Shown here piece by piece: positions 18,986-47,842 of a stretch of 52,144 bases of DNA (position 1 is the first letter of the stretch; the number at the start of each line of letters is the position of its first letter). Location of the stretch: the IMG/VR virus record IMGVR_UViG_3300009506_000046, positions 1-52,144 of that record; one strand, given 5' to 3'. The position numbers and the translations under genes were made by a program. Under the pieces are notes generated by a model. The model ran no database searches. It worked only from the letters and a program-made list of their open reading frames with translations, and was not told the DNA's origin. The DNA is from a virus (taxonomy: Duplodnaviria > Caudoviricetes).

Positions 18986-19021
18986 TTTGCTTGACCTCCA
19001 TCGTACTATTGAATATCATCA

Positions 19022-19057
19022 TATAACCATTGTATAACAGATGATCTTATAAGTCAA
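19022..19057 (-). promoter_or_regulatory. sigma70-type promoter, family A
   Basis: TTGACT-17-TACAAT; 19-mer TATAACCATTGTATAACAG identical to 21761-21779. Confidence 0.8.
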
Positions 19058-21716: not shown

Positions 21717-21755
21717 TTCTTTCCTCCGTTCTATCATTGAATATTCTTGATTTGT

Positions 21756-21795
21756 CATTGTATAACCATTGTATAACAGGTTTAGGAGAAGTCAA
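21756..21795 (-). promoter_or_regulatory. sigma70-type promoter, family A
   Basis: TTGACT-16-TACAAT; tandem 11-mer CATTGTATAAC x2. Confidence 0.8.
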
Positions 21796-29648: not shown

Positions 29649-29739
29649 TTTCTCCTTGTGTTTTTCTACTTCAAATTGAATACCGATAACCGTCTACTCC
29701 CGTTGCCCTATTGACTTACCTTGTACCTCCTTTCATCTC

Positions 29740-29783
29740 ATACGATACATTGATAATGTATCATATTATTACAAAGTTGTCAA
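29740..29783 (-). promoter_or_regulatory. sigma70-type promoter, family B, with palindromic operator
   Basis: TTGACA-17-TACATT with TG extension; GATACATT-GAT-AATGTATC palindrome; 27-mer identical to 35624-35650. Confidence 0.85.
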
Positions 29784-29784
29784 G

Positions 29785-30396
29785 TCACGCCCAATCGAAC
29801 ACTACCATGAGCTTGAGCATGTTCCTTGTGACTCCGGTCCACCCCGCAAAGTGCATGACGTGGATGGCGCAGTTGAACCAGCGATTAGTTACCCAACAAG
29901 GGTAATACTTGATCCAACGACCTTCCTTAATCGCTAATTCGACGCCTTCGCGGTCAAGGCTGGAGTCGAGCCCATACTTCAATTCGTTCCCCTCCATCGT
30001 CATGGAGGGCAGGATAGCCACGCTGCCCTCCATTATCTTGCTGAACCCAGGCACAAGCGAAAGGGCACGGAGCAAGTCTTGATTATGCACACTCTCGATA
30101 ATGTATCCAACCGTTGGTTGGTCACCATGAGCCGTTGGGTGTGCTTGCGAGGGGTTGCCCTCGTAAAACGCACTATGGAGTGGTGGGCGACTGTCAATGT
30201 GCTTAGTGGGCATACCGCAGAACTCATCCCAAAACTCGTCCTCATCATCGTCAAGGGACAGCACGGGCACAGGCGCATCTTCAATGCTGCCGTAGGTGAC
30301 TTCTAACTTGTTGGCGATTTCCCAATCAAAGCGTGGGTCATCCTTTGCGGCATCGTTAATGCCGCAAAGGAATATAAGATAAGGGTCAACTGACAT
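29785..30396 (-). CDS. Hypothetical protein
   Basis: 203 aa, GGAGG RBS. Confidence 0.7.
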   Translation of the reverse strand: MSVDPYLIFLCGINDAAKDDPRFDWEIANKLEVTYGSIEDAPVPVLSLDDDEDEFWDEFCGMPTKHIDSRPPLHSAFYEGNPSQAHPTAHGDQPTVGYIIESVHNQDLLRALSLVPGFSKIMEGSVAILPSMTMEGNELKYGLDSSLDREGVELAIKEGRWIKYYPCWVTNRWFNCAIHVMHFAGWTGVTRNMLKLMVVFDWA

Positions 30397-30826: not shown

Positions 30827-31305
30827 GATTTCACCTCCGGGGCAAGCACGATCAGTTCCTTCGAGATGAAAGTTCGTGGGTCATCCCTCTGCTCGACAAA
30901 GTCAAGGTCAAGATGCGGTGCGGCTTTCTCAAAAGCCTTCGCATCCAGCTTGAGGAACTTACCAAGCGTCGTGCAGAACTTCAATGCCGCTCCCTTATCA
31001 TAGACCAAGTTGGTATACACCCTGATTTCAACAGAGGGGTGGGGCTTCTTGGTCCCGTCGAACTCATAAGCCTCTAGCGCGGCGTGGCGCAAGTGTACCT
31101 CCGCTTGCAGCCGGTCACTCTTCGCCGTCTCTAGCGCCTCATGCTTCTGGTCCAGAATCTGCCCGTACCGTGCCGCTACCATCTCGGCAACCTCGGCCTC
31201 AATTGCTGCAACCTCATCCTCGAGTTGTTCCTCAACCTCCCGCGCCCTCGCTAACTCACTCACCAACTGGTTGATCTTCTGCATGGCCATTTCCTCCTTT
31301 TTCAT
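30823..31305 (-). CDS. Coiled-coil protein, Gam/Gp157-like
   Basis: N-terminal coiled coil followed by GTKKPHPSVEIR...LKLDAKAF. Confidence 0.5.
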   Translation of the reverse strand: MKKEEMAMQKINQLVSELARAREVEEQLEDEVAAIEAEVAEMVAARYGQILDQKHEALETAKSDRLQAEVHLRHAALEAYEFDGTKKPHPSVEIRVYTNLVYDKGAALKFCTTLGKFLKLDAKAFEKAAPHLDLDFVEQRDDPRTFISKELIVLAPEVKS

Positions 31306-31489
31306 CTATAAACTCCCACTCATCCAGTCCAGGGATGAGGCCCAATCCAGAGCCGCGATCCCAATCCACGAACATGGTCCCGCGCCCGTCTACGCCTGTG
31401 ACAGTGCCTTCGTCGCCAGGTTGAACCCTGGTTATTTCGTCATCCGTGTAGATGAGTCTCACCCTGCGCCCTATGTTTGCATTGCTCAT
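31256..31489 (-). CDS. DUF4314-like protein
   Basis: GRRVRL...PGDEGTVTGVD..GTMFVDWDRGSGLGLIPGLD pattern. Confidence 0.8.
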   Translation of the reverse strand: MSNANIGRRVRLIYTDDEITRVQPGDEGTVTGVDGRGTMFVDWDRGSGLGLIPGLDEWEFIDEKGGNGHAEDQPVGE

Positions 31490-31528
31490 TGACTTACCTT
31501 TCTGTTGCCCACCCTCCCGCCCGATTGA

Positions 31529-34713: not shown

Positions 34714-35221
34714 ATTGCTCTTGTTCCTCTCGCATCTTTCGCCAGAACATTACTCCGAGCGATGCGGCGGGTGAGTTTCCCTTTGACCAAGACTGTTCAG
34801 CTTTTTCCTCGCGGGTGGGTTCGGGTTCTGGTTCGGGTTCCTCTTCGTAGACTACCATCCACAGTTCCCCAACTCCATTGGCGGGGATGCACTTGTAGAC
34901 CTTCCCGCCGATACGTCCCAACCTCTGAGCATTGGCCTCTGTCGCGCACCAACTGATTGTCTTGTTCAGTTTGGCGGCGAGGACCTCAGCAACGGCGATG
35001 CTGTGATAACATACTGTCCCGTTGCCATTCCCCAAGCACAAGTTCCCCCGTAGGGTCCCACGACATTCAAAAGAGATCACTCCGTTTCGCTCGACTTTCA
35101 CTCTGTACTGCTTCCCTCTTGATCCTGGGACAATGAATGTATTGGGGGAACTTTCAGCGGTGAATATCGCTGCTGCTTTGGCCTTTTTGATGCGGTTTGC
35201 CAAGTTTGTTTTGGAGGTCAT
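34697..35221 (-). CDS. SWIM-like zinc-finger protein
   Basis: FIVPGSRGKQYRV...FECR...C...CYHSIAV. Confidence 0.6.
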   Translation of the reverse strand: MTSKTNLANRIKKAKAAAIFTAESSPNTFIVPGSRGKQYRVKVERNGVISFECRGTLRGNLCLGNGNGTVCYHSIAVAEVLAAKLNKTISWCATEANAQRLGRIGGKVYKCIPANGVGELWMVVYEEEPEPEPEPTREEKAEQSWSKGNSPAASLGVMFWRKMREEQEQFAEEI

Positions 35222-35592
35222 GAGATCGTCTCCACAAGGCGCAGGCCTGAGCCCTTGCTCAATCTGAACAGATCCCCAAACGCTAAAAACCCGTCAGCCT
35301 CCATGACGGTCAGCATCAAGGTTTCTGCATCGCTCAGGTCATCAAAATCTTTCATAAAGATGTCAACTTGCGGTCGGGTTGCTCTGTTGACGTAGGGCGT
35401 CATCGCTGCGACTCGGAACTTGCCCCGAACATTCAGGAGGGTGAGGCGGGCGGTTCCGGTTAGGTCCGTCACTACCTCAATCAGCTTTCCCCCGAGCTGG
35501 GAGACAAATCTGTCGGTGTCTTCGCCCGACCCGTTCCTCAATCTCGACTCCAATTTGTCAACCTGATCTTGTGCCCAATCTTTTTGATCCAT
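35218..35592 (-). CDS. Hypothetical protein (first gene after a family B promoter)
   Basis: AAAGGGG RBS before ATG 35592; the upstream part of the tracked ORF overlaps the promoter. Confidence 0.6.
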   Translation of the reverse strand: MDQKDWAQDQVDKLESRLRNGSGEDTDRFVSQLGGKLIEVVTDLTGTARLTLLNVRGKFRVAAMTPYVNRATRPQVDIFMKDFDDLSDAETLMLTVMEADGFLAFGDLFRLSKGSGLRLVETIS

Positions 35593-35623
35593 CTGACTTC
35601 CCCTTTCTTGAACTCCGGAATTG

Positions 35624-35667
35624 ATACGATACATTGATAATGTATCATATCTCCGCGAGTTTGTCAA
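35624..35667 (-). promoter_or_regulatory. sigma70-type promoter, family B, with palindromic operator
   Basis: TTGACA-17-TACATT with TG extension; same palindrome as 29744-29762. Confidence 0.85.
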
Positions 35668-35754
35668 GAGGGAAACTTGAAACTCATCAGAGTCCATTAA
35701 ATCCAATGCGCTCCCAATGCACTATCCACACACGACCGCGTCACTCCAATATAA

Positions 35755-37383: not shown

Positions 37384-37400
37384 CCTTTTCCTCCTTGTCG

Positions 37401-37525
37401 TTTATTAATTAAGCTTGATTAACTAATTAACTCTTAACTTTCCTGTGATAATTAAAAGTTAATTAATTAAAGCGTCTGTAACACTCTTATGTGTTACAGG
37501 TCATTTAATTAATTAACTTTTAATT
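37401..37525. other. AT-rich region with a 76-bp inverted repeat; candidate replication origin
   Basis: 22-bp arms 37450-37471 / 37504-37525 plus 9-bp inner arms CTGTAACAC/GTGTTACAG; multiple TTAATTAA. Confidence 0.6.
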
Positions 37526-38088
37526 GATCTCCAAAACCCGCGCCCTGCCGCTGAGCTATACCCCTCTCTTGATGCTACGTTTTTCATTAGTGACCAATCT
37601 TGCTCGTCTCTTATTATGCCCTCGATCTCTGCTGCAGCTTTGATGTCTCCGACCTCGTACTCCTCGCCATTGGCAAGCAACTCTTTCAACCATTCAAGCA
37701 TCGCTTGTGTTTTGGTCGCCGGGGTGGGGGATTTTATAGCGTACGTCCTCAGAAATTCCTCATAGTCGATTTCATGTGCTTCACAAAACTCCCCAAAGTC
37801 TGCTAGCCCCATACGCTCATACAACTCGGCTAGTAGCTCCTGGTCGGACGAATCCGCTTGCCTTCTTAGGGCTTCCAGCTTTGTAATAATGGCAATAGTC
37901 TTTCCGTCAACTTTATCACCTAACTCATCCGACACCGCTTTAAGTCCAGCGAACCAGATATGATTGATTGCTCCGGTTTTACTGGTCCCGAGTGCTGCCC
38001 AAACTTTGATAAACTGCGTCTCCAACTCAAGTACCTCATCCGGTGAACCTCTGGAGTAGACGGGGTAGACTCTAATCACTTGTGCCAT
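37513..38088 (-). CDS. Putative DNA-binding protein with winged-helix-like C-terminus; candidate initiator/regulator
   Basis: First gene of the early arm, GAAAGGA RBS; WLKELLANG...DIKAAAEIEG...GFW C-terminus. Confidence 0.6.
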   Translation of the reverse strand: MAQVIRVYPVYSRGSPDEVLELETQFIKVWAALGTSKTGAINHIWFAGLKAVSDELGDKVDGKTIAIITKLEALRRQADSSDQELLAELYERMGLADFGEFCEAHEIDYEEFLRTYAIKSPTPATKTQAMLEWLKELLANGEEYEVGDIKAAAEIEGIIRDEQDWSLMKNVASREGYSSAAGRGFWRSIKS

Positions 38089-38136
38089 GTTTTTTCCTTT
38101 CTGGTGGAGTTAGGTTGGTGGAGTTGGGATTGAAAC

Positions 38137-38238
38137 AAAAAAAGCCCTTTGCGCGAGTCCGGCCCCAAGGTAAGTCAGTGAGTTGGGGCCGGGCCAGCCC
38201 CTTAAGAAAAGGGCCGGACCCGTGCAAAGAGCTTTTTT
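38137..38238 (-). ncRNA. Structured early-leader RNA (terminator/antisense switch)
   Basis: ~28-bp stem ending in U7, an alternative inner hairpin, and loop CACUGACUUACCUU complementary to early RBS motifs. Confidence 0.65.
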
Positions 38239-38340
38239 GAGTGCGGTGCACAGTTGTCAAGGTTGCCACTGACTTACCCTTTCTTGCTTGCCCCGTCTGC
38301 GGGTTGCCCAATCCCGCGGGGTTACTTACAACGCACTGCC

Positions 38341-38369
38341 ATTCTAACACATTTCTTACCGTTTGTCAA
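38341..38369 (-). promoter_or_regulatory. Leftward (early) promoter
   Basis: TTGACA-17-TAGAAT with TG extension. Confidence 0.85.
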
Positions 38370-38389
38370 GCATTCGTTAGATGTCTCTG

Positions 38390-38418
38390 TTGACATTGGC
38401 CCTTTTCTATGCTATACT
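38390..38418 (+). promoter_or_regulatory. Rightward (late) promoter
   Basis: TTGACA-17-TATACT with TG extension; back-to-back with the early promoter. Confidence 0.85.
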
Positions 38419-38455
38419 GGACCGGACGAACGGGGAGACGCTGCCCGATTCGGTG

Positions 38456-38491
38456 CCCGCGGTATCCCTGTCGCCCGCGGGTTTTCTTTTT
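38456..38491 (+). terminator. Promoter-proximal terminator in the late leader
   Basis: CCCGCGG...CCGCGGG stem followed by TTTTCTTTTT before the holin RBS. Confidence 0.6.
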
Positions 38492-38513
38492 CCGTCACCG
38501 AAAGGAGCTGCCT

Positions 38514-38810
38514 GTGGATCTACAAGAGTTTTTAGTATGGGTCTTTGGCGGCGGTGGTAGTATCGCCGCGGCTTACCTCTTGGTCAAGTACATCTCATTT
38601 CTTGACAACCTCGCCAGCGAGCCCAAGCGATATGCTTCCCTTGCCATAGCATCCGTTCTTGGTGGGGCGGCATTCTACCTCAGCACGGTTCTTGGTTACG
38701 TTGACACCCCGGAAAGCGCCAAAGCGTGGATCGAGGCACTATTTGCCATCGCCTGGGTAGTTGTGACCGGCTCTCAAGCCGTCCACGGTCGACTTGACCT
38801 TAGGGAGTAA
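38514..38810 (+). CDS. Putative holin (3 TM)
   Basis: AAAGGAG RBS, GTG start; three hydrophobic segments; precedes the amidase. Confidence 0.7.
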   Translation: MDLQEFLVWVFGGGGSIAAAYLLVKYISFLDNLASEPKRYASLAIASVLGGAAFYLSTVLGYVDTPESAKAWIEALFAIAWVVVTGSQAVHGRLDLRE

Positions 38811-38969
38811 CCATTACCTTGATACCTTTTTTAAGGGCAAGCCGCGATAAACCACGCGGTGCCGCCGCCCGCCGTGGTAAGCCGTTCCTCCTTGCGGCTT
38901 GCCGCTACTCCCCGCGGCTTGTTGCGGCTTGCCCTACGCTACAATGGCTTTCCCTCGCTATAAGGTGAC

Positions 38970-39638
38970 ATGATGACAGACCAAAACCCCCTGCAGCTTG
39001 CTACTCAGATGCTCGGCCTCACGAACCAACTTATCGACTCCCTAAGGGGTTTGCCCAAACCTCCTCCTTGGCGCAACATCATTGGCGAACTCGCCACTAA
39101 CCCCGGCCCTTATTCCAACGTTTATCTCAACCGCAGCGGCGGTTGGTGGCAGAGGTCCATGGATGAAATTACAGGCATGACCTTTCACCATACCCTCAGC
39201 GACAGCCCCCACGCTACAGCCGCCCACTATGTCAATTATGGAGGCGGCAGGCCAACCACCCCGTACTCAATTTGGATCACTCAGACCGGCGAGATTCTCC
39301 TTTGCGTCCCTCTAACCTCTGGCTTGTGGCATGACCACACCGGCCACCGAAACACTAACTTATCCATCGGTTTGGCTGGCAAGTTGCATATTTACCAACC
39401 CGCCGATGTCCAACTTTACGCCGCGGCCAAGCTCGTCAAGTGGTTGTTGCACTCTCCTGACTTTCCCCGACTAACTTCAACCGCACAAATCAAAGGCCAC
39501 ATGGACGTAGGAACCTGCAAGAACCGAACAGAGTGCCCCGGCTGGATGACCATTGACGCTGAGCGCGGGGTACAACTCGAGGACCGTTGGAAGAACCGCT
39601 TCCAACGCATCATAGCCAAGGTCTTTGATGCTAACTAA
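38970..39638 (+). CDS. Endolysin, N-acetylmuramoyl-L-alanine amidase (Amidase_2-like)
   Basis: TFHHT, WHDHTG..NTNLSIGLAG, IKGHMDV...TECPG Zn-amidase motifs. Confidence 0.8.
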   Translation: MMTDQNPLQLATQMLGLTNQLIDSLRGLPKPPPWRNIIGELATNPGPYSNVYLNRSGGWWQRSMDEITGMTFHHTLSDSPHATAAHYVNYGGGRPTTPYSIWITQTGEILLCVPLTSGLWHDHTGHRNTNLSIGLAGKLHIYQPADVQLYAAAKLVKWLLHSPDFPRLTSTAQIKGHMDVGTCKNRTECPGWMTIDAERGVQLEDRWKNRFQRIIAKVFDAN

Positions 39639-44261: not shown

Positions 44262-44759
44262 ATGCCTAGCAATCGTTGGAAGGAAAGCAACAAAGCGCAT
44301 ATTGAGATCAGGCGCACTTGGGTGGCGCGCTTTCTCGCTATAGGGATGAAGCGTTGGGAGATTGTCAATCAACTTGGGGACATCCCCTTACTCAATCCTG
44401 CCACTGGCTTACCTTATGACCCATCTACCATCTCGCGGGACATTGGTGTTATCACCAGGCGTTGGCAAGAGGATGCAGTTGAGCACATCGCCACGCTCAA
44501 AGCGGCACAACTGGCTGAACTCAGAGCGGCACGGCGCCAGGCGTGGACCAACAAAAGTATGTCTGAGGTTCGTCGTAATCTTGAGTTTGAGGCTAGATTG
44601 ATGGGTACAGAGGCCCCAATTAAGCACGACGTATCTTCACTCAATGTCAACGCCCAACTCTCTCCGGAGGACTTTGGCTCTCTGAGCGACAAGGAACTGC
44701 GTGACTTTCGCTACTATGTCGATGAAGTTTTGGGGATTGGCGGCAATGGTAACCGCTGA
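44262..44759 (+). CDS. Terminase small subunit
   Basis: HTH-like STISRDI, ARLMGTEAPIK motif; overlaps the large-subunit start. Confidence 0.75.
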   Translation: MPSNRWKESNKAHIEIRRTWVARFLAIGMKRWEIVNQLGDIPLLNPATGLPYDPSTISRDIGVITRRWQEDAVEHIATLKAAQLAELRAARRQAWTNKSMSEVRRNLEFEARLMGTEAPIKHDVSSLNVNAQLSPEDFGSLSDKELRDFRYYVDEVLGIGGNGNR

Positions 44760-46314
44760 GCGCCCTGTTGAACTTCCCGCAGTCGCCCAGAGGCTGAATC
44801 AAGAAAACATTGGCTTGTTTGATGTCGGGCTTGACTTGGCCCATGTTGACCGGTTCGGTTTCAAGGGGTACGTCGAGCGTGCTTGGGTCAGGGTGCGACC
44901 CCATGAGTCATTTATTGACGGTTGGCATATCGACGCTATTTGTGAGCACCTCGAAGCCATCAAGTCGGGGGAGATTCGTAACCTTATTATCAACGTCCCG
45001 CCCCGGCACACCAAGAGCTTGTTGACGTCCGTCTTTTTTCCTACCTATTGTTGGATTGATCTCCCTGGCTCCTGTTGGCTCACCGCATCATACGCTATCC
45101 CCCTGGCTGTCCGTGATGCCACTCGCTCGCGCCGCTTGATGCAATCTCCTTGGTGGCAAGCGCGATGGGGCAGCTCTTTCAAGTTTGCGGGTGACCAGAA
45201 CCAAAAAAGCAGGTACGAGAATAACCAAGGAGGCCACCGTATTGCCATTGGCGTGACAGGCATGGGCACCGGCGAGGGCGGTGACTTTATCATCGTGGAC
45301 GACCCGGTGAAAGTCGCTGACGCTGATTCCGATCTTGCTCTTGACAATGCCAACACTTGGTGGGCTCAAACGATGTCAACGCGCACCAATGACCCCCGCA
45401 CAGCTGCAAAAGTCGTCATCATGCAGCGGTTGCACGAAAACGACTTGACTGGCCATCTCCTTGATGAAATGAAGCACGGCGGGGAGCATTATGAGCTACT
45501 GCGCCTGCCGGCCGAGTTTGAACCTAACAGGCACTTTGTCACCTCTATTGGTTGGTCTGACCCTCGCACCGAGGAAGGCGAGTTGCTTAACCCAGAGCGG
45601 TTTGGCAAAAGGGAACTCGCCAACCTCAAAGCTGTATTGGGTGAGCAAGCAACGGCGGGGCAGTTGCAACAGCGCCCCGCGCCCGCAGGCGGCGCGATCT
45701 TTCAGCGCAAGTGGTGGGAGGACGACAATCGTTACGACCCCAACGATACCGCCCTATGGCAAACCACTGTAGGACGCTGGTTGTCAATTGACACTGCCCT
45801 GAAGGACAAAGAGACAAACGACTACCACGCTCTCGGCGTTTGGGAGATGACAAAAGATTACCGCTTGGTTCTCCGTGAGGCCCAATGGAAGCGACTGCAA
45901 TTCCCCCAACTTGCCGATTGGATTCAAGAGGAAGCTCTGCGCTGGCGAGGGAGGGATTTCCTCAAAGGCATCCTCATTGAGGACAAAGTTAGTGGGACAT
46001 CAGCCCTTCAAACCCTGCGTCAAGAGGCACCTGAGTGGCTAGCCGACTTACTTATCGGCTTTGAGCCTCGTGGCAGCAAAGAGGGCAGAGCGCGACAAGC
46101 CGCCCTTTGGTGTGACCGTGGTTGCATCCTCTTGCCAGAGCCAAGCACGGGCGCCCCCTGGCTGTTTGAGTTCGAGGAAGATTTCTTGTACAAGTTCCCG
46201 ATGGGTAAGTTTGACGACCCGGTAGATCAGCTGTCTCAGATGGTCATCTACCTGGAGCATTATCTCGCCCAAGGGTGGCGGTCGAGGGTAAGGGTGGAAT
46301 ATGGCGATAGTTAG
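44746..46314 (+). CDS. terL: Terminase large subunit
   Basis: INVPPRHTKS Walker A, IIVDDP Walker B, IMQRLHENDLTG, QQRPAP, FPMGKFDDPVD. Confidence 0.95.
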   Translation: MVTAERPVELPAVAQRLNQENIGLFDVGLDLAHVDRFGFKGYVERAWVRVRPHESFIDGWHIDAICEHLEAIKSGEIRNLIINVPPRHTKSLLTSVFFPTYCWIDLPGSCWLTASYAIPLAVRDATRSRRLMQSPWWQARWGSSFKFAGDQNQKSRYENNQGGHRIAIGVTGMGTGEGGDFIIVDDPVKVADADSDLALDNANTWWAQTMSTRTNDPRTAAKVVIMQRLHENDLTGHLLDEMKHGGEHYELLRLPAEFEPNRHFVTSIGWSDPRTEEGELLNPERFGKRELANLKAVLGEQATAGQLQQRPAPAGGAIFQRKWWEDDNRYDPNDTALWQTTVGRWLSIDTALKDKETNDYHALGVWEMTKDYRLVLREAQWKRLQFPQLADWIQEEALRWRGRDFLKGILIEDKVSGTSALQTLRQEAPEWLADLLIGFEPRGSKEGRARQAALWCDRGCILLPEPSTGAPWLFEFEEDFLYKFPMGKFDDPVDQLSQMVIYLEHYLAQGWRSRVRVEYGDS

Positions 46315-47842
46315 GCGGTTTTTCGGTGGGGCGGTGACACAAGCTATACCTACATCGCTTCCATACTACTACGAAGCAACTAGCCAGTACCGCGCCTTTC
46401 ACGATTTGCTCAGAGCGTACTATCTCAGCAATGGCCTTTACGACGAAATACGCACCGCCCTGCAGGTGACCGGCGCGGAGGATGAGTCGCTTAAACCCCT
46501 GCGCAACCCCGCATCCCGCGCCGTGGAGTTCTATGCCGCCAAGTTGTGGCCCGGCACTCTCCCCGACGCTTTGCCCATCGTCACTGACAACCAGGCAATC
46601 ATTGAGCCGGTGAAACAAATATGGACCTGGTCAAACTGGTCTCACCGGAAACAGGTGGCCGCTCGGTGGTTGGCCATGTACGGCGATTTGTTTATCAAGG
46701 TCGGATCGAGTGAAGGCAAGGTCTTTCTACAAATCATCGACCCGCGCCACTCCCCCTATTATGACCTTGATGACAGAGGTAACCTCACTCACTTCCGCGC
46801 TGACATCCCCATTTCTGCAATCGACGCAGAGACGGGCGAGCTAACCATCGAGTCATTCACCGAGGTATGGGACAAGGGCTTGCAGTGGTATGCCCAGTGG
46901 ACGCACACGGAAAACTTTGGCGTCAGCCTCTCCCAACTCGGTACGCCAGATTACACCGCCGACTTTTCCGAGTTTGGCGTTGACTTTGTCCCCGTCGTTC
47001 ACGTCAAGCATAGAGACATTGGCGATGACCACGGCGACGGAGTGTTCTCCCACGTCATCGACAAGATAGACGAGGCGAACCGGCAAGCCACTCGCTTACA
47101 TCAGATGCTCTATCGCTCAAACCGCAGCCTTTGGGTTTTGCAAGCCAACCTCCTTGATGCCCAGGGCAGGCCGATGCCTGCCCCGACCATTGGTGACTCC
47201 AATGAGCTTGAGATAGGCGACGACACTCTATTTCGACTCCCCGGTAATAGTACCTTGCAATCAATGGTGCCCCAGCTTAATTACACTGATGCTCTTTCGA
47301 TCTTGAATGCTCAACTTGACGAAATCGAGCGTGACTTGCCAGAACTGAACTACTACCGCATCAAAGAAATGGGAGGCAACATCTCGGGTCGGGCGATTCG
47401 TCTATTACTCTCAGACGCTGTTGACAATGTGCTAGAGGTTAGGGGTAACGCCGAGGCGGGCCTTGCTCGTGCTGACATGATGGCCCTGACTATAGGGGCC
47501 AATATGGGGCTGGAGGGGTTCAATGTAGGATCCTATGAGGCGGGTGACCTTGAGCACTCTTTTGCCGAGCGCGCGGTGATAGAATCAGAACCCGACGAGC
47601 GAGCCGATACGTTGCAAAAGTATCGCGGGGCAGGCCTTGCTCTTACCACAGCTATGCGCTTGACCGGTTTCAGCGAGGAAGAGATTGTCAGAGCGCAAAC
47701 CGATCTCCAGATGGAACAGGCGCAGGCGACTACGTCTCTGGCGTCGGCTCTGTTGGAGCAACAAAGGCGTTTTGATCAGGAACAGCAGGCGCAGTTGGGT
47801 GGACCTCGGCAAGAACCAGGGACACCAGAGGGATTAGTTTAG
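46301..47842 (+). CDS. Portal protein (SPP1 gp6-like)
   Basis: 513 aa directly after terL; VPVVH, ISGRAIR motifs. Confidence 0.85.
   Translation: MAIVRRFFGGAVTQAIPTSLPYYYEATSQYRAFHDLLRAYYLSNGLYDEIRTALQVTGAEDESLKPLRNPASRAVEFYAAKLWPGTLPDALPIVTDNQAIIEPVKQIWTWSNWSHRKQVAARWLAMYGDLFIKVGSSEGKVFLQIIDPRHSPYYDLDDRGNLTHFRADIPISAIDAETGELTIESFTEVWDKGLQWYAQWTHTENFGVSLSQLGTPDYTADFSEFGVDFVPVVHVKHRDIGDDHGDGVFSHVIDKIDEANRQATRLHQMLYRSNRSLWVLQANLLDAQGRPMPAPTIGDSNELEIGDDTLFRLPGNSTLQSMVPQLNYTDALSILNAQLDEIERDLPELNYYRIKEMGGNISGRAIRLLLSDAVDNVLEVRGNAEAGLARADMMALTIGANMGLEGFNVGSYEAGDLEHSFAERAVIESEPDERADTLQKYRGAGLALTTAMRLTGFSEEEIVRAQTDLQMEQAQATTSLASALLEQQRRFDQEQQAQLGGPRQEPGTPEGLV

What the first reader, a model, noticed from the sequence alone, without database searches (positions are those of the whole stretch)
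38137..38340. Early-leader RNA whose loop is antisense to a motif at four early start/leader sites: candidate RNA-based immunity or lifestyle switch
Seen: the leftward transcript from the 38341-38369 promoter can fold into a ~28-bp stem (AAAAAAGCUCUUUGCACGGGUCCGGCCC / GGGCCGGACUCGCGCAAAGGGCUUUUUUU, two G-U pairs and one mismatch, ending in U7) or into a mutually exclusive hairpin CCGGCCCCAA...UUGGGGCCGG. The enclosed segment CACUGACUUACCUU (38167-38180) is complementary to a motif on the same minus-strand mRNAs: AAGAAAGGGUAAGUCAGUG in the leader itself (38267-38285; SD + GUG of a leader frame that overlaps the 37513-38088 start), AAGAAAGGGGAAGUCAG-AUG (start of 35218-35592), AGAAAGGUAAGUCA-AUG (start of the DUF4314-like gene, 31487-31503) and AAGGUAAGUCAA (29711-29722, just after the second family B promoter). 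The large loop also contains CCCUUUUCUU (38204-38213), complementary to the AAGAAAGGG SD half. Known: P1/P7 C4 RNA and P4 CI RNA are leader-derived antisense RNAs acting on repeated targets in their own operon. Inference: with no CI repressor or integrase visible, this may be an unrelated multi-target antisense regulator of the replication/recombination arm.
Basis: partly seen in the sequence, partly recalled or inferred. Interest (0 to 1): 0.88.

Follow-up and report, generated by a model that had tools for sequence, protein, structure and literature searches.

The report
Phage early-leader RNA with anti-start-site loop
An uncultivated sediment phage starts its early genes with a short leader that ends in a large branched terminator, and the exposed loop of that terminator is the mirror image of ribosome start sites in the same operon, so it may be an RNA regulator, though this is untested.

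Summary
A near-consensus leftward promoter (38369-38341) is followed by a ~200-nt leader ending in a very stable branched terminator with a U7 tail. Its 14-nt loop (38182-38169) is predicted single-stranded. The loop pairs over 14 bp with the leader's own SD-7nt-GUG motif (38280-38267). It also pairs at 15 of 16 positions with the start site of the DUF4314 gene (31489). Only these two sites beat shuffled loops. The sites at 35594 and 29711 share the DNA motif but pair no better than chance with the strict loop.

No Rfam family matches, including the P1 c4 / P4 CI family. I found no relative carrying the element, so covariation could not be tested. The region occurs in metatranscriptome contigs, but strand and RNA ends are not established.

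My best reading (about 0.4) is a leader-derived antisense RNA/attenuator that works like P4 CI, P1 c4 or Salmonella IsrK without being homologous. Rivals are a purely cis folding switch, a plain promoter-proximal terminator awaiting an antiterminator, or a DNA site. The "immunity/lifestyle switch" label is unsupported. Two other early promoters carry a palindromic, protein-type operator.

The parts
38341..38369 (-). Early leftward promoter, TTGACA-17-TAGAAT with TG upstream of the -10. The start site is inferred near 38334.
   Evidence: 11 of 12 consensus matches. Sequence.
38131..38334 (-). Leader RNA of about 200 nt, from the inferred start to the end of the U tract.
   Evidence: Folds (-88.3 kcal/mol for 204 nt; z-score -2.78 for the 241-nt stretch).
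38267..38285 (-). Leader start-site motif AAGAAAGGGUAAGUCAGUG (SD, 7-nt spacer, GUG). It is the best complement of the loop, with 14 bp including one G-U.
   Evidence: (-20.5 kcal/mol, best site in the window apart from the loop's own complementary DNA strand).
38072..38269 (-). 65-codon frame opened by the motif's GUG. It reads through the terminator and stops 14 nt past the ATG of the 191-aa gene. It has no coding signature.
   Evidence: log-likelihood ratio -0.002 per codon against 0.243 for long genes; 20% of random frames stay open this long. No Pfam hit. No protein of this frame in the database.
38138..38238 (-). Branched intrinsic terminator. The outer stem is 38238-38218 / 38158-38138, followed by U7 (38143-38137).
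   Evidence: (I3). Covariance model R1 matches only here.
38194..38217 (-). Hairpin 1: CCGGCCCUUU-UCUU-AAGGGGCUGG. It contains CCCUUUUCUU, the complement of the SD half of the motif.
38159..38192 (-). Hairpin 2: a perfect 10-bp stem with the 14-nt antisense loop CUCACUGACUUACC (38182-38169).
   Evidence: loop unpaired probability near 1. (also unpaired in the alternative fold).
31487..31503 (-). Start site of the DUF4314 gene (31256-31489). It is complementary to the whole loop plus closing pairs at 15 of 16 positions and is the best trans candidate.
   Evidence: DUF4314, E 6.5e-17; rank 2 of 80; net -13.7 kcal/mol; unstructured.
35593..35611 (-). Start site of the 124-aa gene (ATG 35592), 22-40 nt downstream of the operator-bearing promoter at 35667-35639. 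Weak complement (7-nt perfect run).
   Evidence: rank 5, -12.9; net -9.0, rank 3.
29711..29722 (-). Motif copy AAGGUAAGUCAA in the 5' UTR after the promoter at 29783-29755. It is followed by AUA, not a start codon. The 11-nt perfect complement needs the two closing A-U pairs to open.
   Evidence: (rank 3, -13.3, not better than shuffles).

Best explanation
The leftward early promoter makes a leader of about 200 nt that mostly stops at a very stable branched intrinsic terminator.

The terminated RNA, possibly trimmed to about 120 nt, displays a 14-nt anti-start-site loop. This loop pairs with the SD-spacer-start motif on newly made leaders and on the DUF4314 message. It may pair more weakly with the motif copies after the two operator-controlled early promoters.

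Pairing would block ribosome loading. On the leader, the motif's GUG opens a frame that runs through the terminator. Blocking that ribosome would let the terminator form, so the RNA would reinforce its own termination and shut down the replication/recombination arm.

What is shown: the promoter, the terminator folds, the exposed loop, the complementarities and their statistics. What is inferred: that the short RNA accumulates, that it acts in trans, that the leader frame is translated, and that translation controls read-through.

It works like P4 CI, P1 c4 or Salmonella IsrK but is not a sequence relative of them.
For: - Consensus promoter.
- Terminator element of -61.6 kcal/mol with a U7 tail. 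The loop is unpaired in both near-isoenergetic folds.
- Across both strands of the window, the loop's best partner after its own complementary DNA strand is the leader motif at -20.5 kcal/mol.
- Among 80 start regions, the leader site and the DUF4314 site rank 1 and 2. Shuffled loops reach them in 2.4% and 2.6% of 500 trials for the 14-nt loop. For the 18-nt loop, 0 of 400 shuffles reach either.
- Net energies after subtracting opening costs are -14.9 and -13.7 kcal/mol. The next sites are -9.0 (35592) and -7.3.
- Perfect complements of 11 nt or more exist at only three places in 104 kb of two strands. All three have SD-7nt-start geometry on the early-arm transcribed strand.
- All four motif copies keep the same SD-7nt-start spacing.
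- The targets are predicted unstructured.
- The leader motif nearly duplicates the start site of a real Pfam-supported gene.
- The upstream-target / antisense / downstream-target layout matches the description of P4 seqA-CI-seqC. The short-and-read-through layout matches IsrK (passages read in PMC4825925).
- Very weak: contigs from RNA libraries of one study cover the leader. One run shows adapter junctions at 38144 (the last stem base before the U tract) and 38261.
Against: - There is no covariation, because no relative carries the element.
- Sites 35594 and 29711 are not better than shuffled loops with the strict loop, at 71% and 67%.
- Background sites at -17.5 to -16.8 kcal/mol exist elsewhere in the window, so 31489 (-17.7) stands out only because of where it lies.
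- The look-elsewhere scan found two other hairpins with three 11-nt complements each.
- The leader frame has no coding signature, and 20% of random frames are open that long.
- RNA-library contigs also run across the promoter itself (37929-38431, 38232-38406, 38296-38795). They are therefore not simply this transcript, and DNA carry-over cannot be excluded.
- The one informative adapter orientation at 38261 would place that fragment on the + strand if the library is dUTP-stranded (the reading of adapter types is mine).
- The near-identical strain in the RNA runs has no change in loop or targets, so it says nothing either way.
Confidence: 0.4

Rival explanations
1. A purely cis-acting folding switch. 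The leader motif and the loop pair within one molecule. This either delays terminator folding during transcription or closes the leader start site afterwards. The other motif copies are simply similar start sites with no RNA partner.
For: - The intramolecular partner is the best one, at 14 bp and -20.5 kcal/mol.
- Stepwise folds of growing transcripts put this helix in the minimum-energy structure when the transcript ends at 38166 or 38156. The terminator wins only from 38145 onward.
- Two of the four proposed trans sites are at chance level.
Against: - The helix shares no nucleotides with the outer terminator stem, so it need not prevent termination. At full length the terminator fold is 10 kcal/mol better, at -88.3 against -78.3.
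- It does not explain the 15-of-16 match to the DUF4314 start site.
Confidence: 0.25
2. An ordinary strong promoter-proximal terminator that holds early genes off until a phage antiterminator (N-, Q- or put-like) acts. The motif matches would be incidental similarity among purine-rich start sites.
For: - The divergent rightward promoter (38390-38418) is also followed by a terminator-like hairpin with a T-run (38467-38481 plus tail) before the holin-like and amidase genes. That is the lambda late-leader layout described in PMC4825925.
- C/U-rich loops pair easily with SD regions, so the shuffle baselines are high.
- Other hairpins show triple 11-nt complements by chance.
- The 5' arm of the stem contains GCUCUUU. 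I recall this as the core of boxA; that identification comes from no call.
Against: - No antiterminator family was recognised in 49 ORFs plus the leader frame scanned with Pfam, though such proteins are diverse.
- A 12-nt perfect complement 90 nt upstream, placed exactly in the exposed loop, is unlikely by chance. My estimate is about 1e-4 to 1e-5.
- All three complements of 11 nt or more fall at start-site geometry.
Confidence: 0.2
3. The motif is a DNA site for an unidentified protein, in three direct copies in early 5' regions and one inverted copy. The hairpin context would be coincidental.
For: - The 12-mer AAGGTAAGTCAA is identical at 29711 and 31489. All copies share the AAGG part, which lies outside the strict loop complement.
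- The copies after the two operator promoters sit at nearly the same distance from the -10 box (33-35 nt).
Against: - The motif is asymmetric and single at each place.
- The inverted copy sits exactly in the loop of a perfect 10-bp hairpin.
- The AAGG part and the 7-nt spacing to a start codon are explained by ribosome binding.
Confidence: 0.07

Closest known systems
Satellite phage P4 CI RNA with its seqA and seqC targets
   Same: - The antisense element lies inside an untranslated leader.
- One complementary target lies upstream in the same leader and others lie downstream in the same operon.
- The proposed outcome is premature termination of the phage's own replication genes (as described in PMC4825925, passage read).
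   Different: - No sequence or structure match to any Rfam family.
- Here the element is itself an intrinsic terminator with a U7 tail.
- No lysogeny genes were recognised.
- Processing is unknown.
Phage P1/P7 c4 antisense RNA of the immI operon
   Same: An RNA encoded upstream in the operon it controls, acting on a binding site near the downstream genes (PMC8201110, passages read). From recall only: the c4 target overlaps the icd ribosome binding site.
   Different: - No Rfam match.
- No antirepressor or icd-like gene was recognised.
- There is a single antisense loop rather than two.
Salmonella Gifsy-1 IsrK
   Same: One promoter gives a short RNA ending at a Rho-independent terminator and a read-through polycistronic message. 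The short form acts in trans on the long form around a small ORF's ribosome site (PMC4825925).
   Different: - IsrK activates translation of the read-through message, whereas pairing here would occlude the start site.
- There is no homology. The weak below-threshold STnc100 and Pseudomonadales-1 alignments are noise.
Leader-peptide attenuators in which a ribosome reads through the terminator (E. coli pyrBI type; recalled, from no call)
   Same: A leader frame starts upstream of the terminator, crosses it and ends at the first gene's start.
   Different: - No coding signature, and no evidence that the frame is translated.
- The control input proposed here is an RNA loop, not nucleotide supply.

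Membership tests
C4 antisense RNA family (P1 c4, P4 CI and relatives; family name recalled) | Match to the Rfam covariance model | tested here: not met
   No family reached its gathering score over the whole window. No c4-type match even at E up to 10 over 37900-38600.
C4 antisense RNA family (P1 c4, P4 CI and relatives; family name recalled) | Antisense segment complementary to repeated targets in its own operon | tested here: met
   Leader site of 14 bp and DUF4314 start site at 15 of 16 positions. Two further weak copies.
C4 antisense RNA family (P1 c4, P4 CI and relatives; family name recalled) | Mature RNA released from the leader by processing | tested here: inconclusive
   Only contigs were available. 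One run shows adapter junctions at 38144 and 38261, with the strand unresolved.
C4 antisense RNA family (P1 c4, P4 CI and relatives; family name recalled) | Sits in an immunity region of a temperate element | tested here: inconclusive
   No integrase, repressor or antirepressor family in 49 ORFs and the leader frame. There was only a sub-threshold DUF3701 hit. The record is estimated 72% complete.
Intrinsic (Rho-independent) terminator | Stable G+C-rich stem directly followed by a U run | tested here: met
   A 28-nt inverted repeat plus U7, at -61.6 kcal/mol. It is absent from the simple scan only because that scan allows loops of 3-8 nt.
IsrK-type short/read-through dual RNA | Promoter-proximal terminator upstream of genes on the same strand | tested here: met
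   Promoter at 38369-38341, terminator at 38238-38138, first gene ATG at 38088.
IsrK-type short/read-through dual RNA | The short form acts in trans on the long form | not testable with these tools
   Needs expression experiments.
Leader-peptide attenuator | Translated leader frame crossing the terminator | tested here: inconclusive
   The frame is open with a good SD-7nt-GUG, but its codon score is -0.002 against 0.243, and 20% of random frames are as long.

The most novel reading that the evidence does not exclude
The element would be an RNA-only, self-reinforcing early shut-off switch.

The terminated leader RNA binds the start site of a leader frame on nascent copies of itself. This removes the ribosome that would otherwise melt the terminator. 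Each termination event then raises the probability of the next. The same loop also silences DUF4314 and the operator-controlled early units.

This would be a bistable circuit built from one promoter, one terminator and one loop, in a phage lineage with no recognisable repressor. It would have arisen independently of the c4/CI family.
Probability: 0.15. Interest if true: 0.7.

Novelty: new variant of a known kind. Interest (0 to 1): 0.45.

Why it matters
If it is real, this would be an independently evolved example of a phage controlling its own early operon through a leader-derived antisense RNA. It comes from an uncultivated sediment phage clade with no characterised relatives, and the antisense element and the terminator are the same structure. 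That would extend the P4 CI / P1 c4 / IsrK principle beyond enterobacterial temperate elements. It would also give a compact, testable design in which one loop and one motif can be probed with compensatory mutations. If it is only a terminator, the finding is ordinary.

Tried and rejected
**Searches for relatives.** None of these found the element.
- blastn of 37400-38900 against phage records found no match.
- Close-relative scans of viral contigs with the 191-aa protein and with the helicase found none.
- The exact hairpin pattern found none.
- The hairpin stems with a free loop found none.
- Motif-gap-antisense pattern: 8 loci, none matching model R1, so taken as chance.
- The operator palindrome gave one hit inside a coding region of an unrelated AT-rich phage, taken as chance.
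- The helicase alignment A2 gave 18 viral loci and 4 MAG loci at 23-48% identity. None had an R1 match.
- The closest 54-kb relative, L005, has a different upstream layout.
- Weak homologues of the 191-aa gene in L022 and L025 sit inside operons without a leader.
- The 191-aa protein has no homologue, and the leader frame has no database protein.
- tblastn of the helicase against phage records found only matches below 29% identity, mostly in phages with genomes of 136 kb or more.

**Other tests that led nowhere.**
- A generic scan for loop/start-site complements in relatives was too noisy to use.
- Atlas look-ups of the 191-aa and 124-aa proteins gave nothing usable.
- There are no tRNA genes.

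**RNA-run cover.** In runs X10 and X11 the bins 37723-38123 show no cover while 38124-38524 do. Following the tool's own caution, absence of cover in contigs is not used as evidence for termination. The adapter-orientation reading of strand rests on a single calibrating contig and is not used either.

**Idea rejected.** The loop-motif helix is not a classical antiterminator, because it shares no bases with the outer stem.

Full report
**Context**

The window is one IMG/VR virus record of 52,144 bases, classed linear and estimated 72% complete. The gene layout comes from ORF lists and family scans.
- Plus-strand late genes run from about 38,400 to the end of the window and on from 1 to about 17,000. 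They include a holin-like membrane ORF at 38514-38810, an Amidase_2 gene at 38970-39638, large terminase at 44701-46314, portal at 46301-47842, and then head and tail genes.
- A minus-strand arm runs from 38,100 down to about 17,100. It includes a 191-aa orphan, a Rad3/DEAD_2 helicase, a 902-aa UvrD-type helicase, DUF4314, an AAA_24 protein, DUF5131 and an FtsK-like ATPase.
- The finding lies in the 300-bp divergent control region between the two arms.
- No integrase, repressor, antirepressor or antiterminator family was recognised in 49 ORFs and the leader frame scanned with Pfam.

**The observation**

- The minus-strand promoter at 38369-38341 is TTGACA-17-TAGAAT with an upstream TG, matching 11 of 12 consensus positions.
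- The 204-nt transcript inferred from it folds to -88.3 kcal/mol. A 241-nt stretch has a z-score of -2.78 against shuffles.
- Its 3' half (38238-38138) is a 28-nt inverted repeat, 89% complementary, followed by seven U.
- ViennaRNA prefers a Y shape. The outer stem has 15+5 pairs. Hairpin 1 is CCGGCCCUUU-UCUU-AAGGGGCUGG. Hairpin 2 is a perfect 10-bp stem around the 14-nt loop CUCACUGACUUACC. Together these give -61.6 kcal/mol, and the loop is unpaired with probability near 1.

**The motif**

The four sense-strand copies share AAGG(U/G)AAGUCA(A/G). All have the same geometry: an SD-like AAGG/AGGG, a 7-nt spacer and then a start position.
- At 38269 the start position is GUG.
- At 31489 it is the AUG of a Pfam-supported gene (DUF4314, E 6.5e-17).
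- At 35592 it is the AUG of a 124-aa ORF.
- At 29710 it is AUA, followed by a stop four codons later.
- Three copies lie 22-68 nt downstream of predicted promoters.

**Is the complementarity more than chance?**

Several tests give a mixed answer.
It was designed after seeing the sites.
- I scanned the 14-nt loop against every 24-nt window of both strands. After the loop's own complementary DNA strand, the best partner is the leader's own motif (-20.5 kcal/mol), followed by 31489 (-17.7). Unrelated sites follow closely at -17.5, -17.2, -17.1 and -16.8. The 35594 and 29711 sites are not in the top 30.
- Against 80 start regions, the four sites rank 1, 2, 3 and 5. Of 500 composition-matched shuffled loops, 2.4% and 2.6% reach the rank-1 and rank-2 energies, while 71% and 67% reach ranks 3 and 4.
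- If the two closing A-U pairs are allowed to open (18 nt), 0 of 400 shuffles reach ranks 1 and 2, and 3.3% reach ranks 3 and 4.
- Perfect complements of 11 nt or more exist at only three places in the whole window, at 38278, 31500 and 29722. All are on the early-arm transcribed strand.
- After subtracting opening costs, the net energies are -14.9 (leader), -13.7 (DUF4314) and -9.0 (35592), followed by unrelated sites from -7.3.
- A look-elsewhere scan tempers this. Of 615 hairpins with 9-20-nt loops, 110 have at least one 11-nt complement on the same strand. Two other hairpins have three.

My conclusion is that pairing with the leader's own motif and with the DUF4314 start site is beyond chance. 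The other two copies are real repeats of the DNA motif but are not distinguished by pairing energy.

**What the pairing could do**

Stepwise folding shows that once the loop segment has been transcribed, with the transcript ending at 38166 or 38156, the minimum-energy structure pairs it with the upstream motif. The terminator takes over from 38145, and at full length it is 10 kcal/mol better. The helix shares no bases with the outer stem, so it is not a classical antiterminator.

The motif's GUG opens a 65-codon frame that crosses the terminator and stops 14 nt after the next gene's ATG. That is the geometry of ribosome-dependent attenuators. However, the frame has no coding signature (-0.002 against 0.243 per codon), and 20% of random frames are as long.

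My favoured model is that the terminated RNA acts in trans on nascent leaders and on the DUF4314 message, and perhaps on the other two copies. It would block ribosome loading and so favour termination. The steps from "the RNA accumulates" onward are inference.

**RNA evidence**

The phage sequence occurs in sediment metagenomes and in four metatranscriptome runs of one study. Only Logan contigs could be laid.
- Contigs from the RNA libraries cover the leader: 37929-38431 in X7, 38232-38406 in X11 and 38296-38795 in X10.
- These contigs also cross the promoter itself, so other transcripts or DNA carry-over are possible.
- In X11, adapter sequence abuts 38144, the last stem base before the U run, and 38261. 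This would fit a fragment of about 118 nt holding the whole structure.
- The strand is not established. One adapter-type reading would even favour the + strand if the library is dUTP-stranded.
- The strain in those runs differs at 38285 and 38090 but nowhere in the loop or the targets, so it offers no covariation.

**Relatives**

I found no relative that carries the element.
- The 191-aa protein is an orphan.
- The helicase has many homologues, but at 56% identity or less.
- 22 loci from viral and genome contigs with helicase relatives at 23-48% identity have no match to a covariance model built from the element.
- Pattern scans found nothing or only chance hits.

**Comparison with known systems**

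No Rfam family reaches threshold in the window. Nothing resembling the c4/CI family appears even at E up to 10. So the element is not a member of that family.

In function it resembles three systems:
- P4 CI, where an antisense element in the leader has one target upstream and others downstream and causes premature termination;
- P1 c4, an RNA upstream in the operon it controls;
- Salmonella IsrK, where a short terminated RNA acts in trans on the read-through form.

What I read: passages of PMC4825925 and PMC8201110, and listing abstracts. The primary P1 and P4 papers were seen only as references in those passages. Supplementary files were not consulted.

**Rivals**
- A cis-only folding switch (0.25).
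- A plain promoter-proximal terminator awaiting an antiterminator (0.2). This is supported by the mirror arrangement on the rightward late promoter.
- A DNA-level protein site (0.07).

The "immunity/lifestyle" label has no support. The two operator-bearing promoters point to a protein regulator that no family search identified.

**Verdict**

This is a real, statistically supported structural and complementarity feature with a plausible mechanism of a known type. It is unverified and currently unique to one uncultivated phage. I rate its interest as moderate.

Noticed in passing
window 38390-38490 (+): The divergent rightward promoter TTGACA-17-TATACT (11 of 12 matches, with TG) is followed about 40-70 nt later by a terminator-like hairpin with a T-run. 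Next come an SD-GTG at 38514, a 98-aa holin-like membrane ORF and an Amidase_2 gene. This resembles the lambda late leader that needs an antiterminator.
   Followed up: partly
window 35624-35668 and 29740-29784 (-): Two early promoters (TTGACA-17-TACATT with TG) share a 45-nt block containing the perfect 19-bp palindrome GATACATTATCAATGTATC across -10/+1. It is probably the operator of an unidentified repressor. The only other IMG/VR match was a chance hit in a coding region.
   Followed up: partly
window 37419-37525: AT-rich nested palindromes built from TTAATTAA units lie between the 191-aa gene and the helicase gene, in a genome of about 54% G+C. One pair has 35-nt arms that are 89% complementary. 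This could be a replication origin, a protein-binding site or a terminator.
   Followed up: no
window 38834-38935: A 41-nt inverted repeat (73% complementary, 20 nt apart) rich in GCGGCTTGCC-like units lies between the holin-like ORF and the amidase gene.
   Followed up: no
window 19016-19040 and 21755-21779: A 25-nt direct repeat, 92% identical (TCAT..TATAACCATTGTATAACAG), occurs at two intergenic places in the distal early arm. It may be another shared control site.
   Followed up: no
window 30029: Strains in the RNA-library runs carry a 15-nt insertion here, in two variants differing by one base. A cluster of substitutions lies at 29951-30039, inside the 203-aa ORF.
   Followed up: no
window 38226-38232 (-): GCUCUUU lies in the 5' arm of the terminator stem and matches what I recall as the boxA core of Nus-dependent antitermination sites. 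The identification comes from memory only and is a 7-mer, so it may be chance.
   Followed up: no
L022 5082-5684 and L025 4292-4951: The otherwise orphan 191-aa first early protein has weak homologues (28-32% identity). They sit just upstream of the helicase homologue, on contigs binned into MAGs of unrelated phyla. The bins probably hold phage contigs, so they give no host clue.
   Followed up: partly
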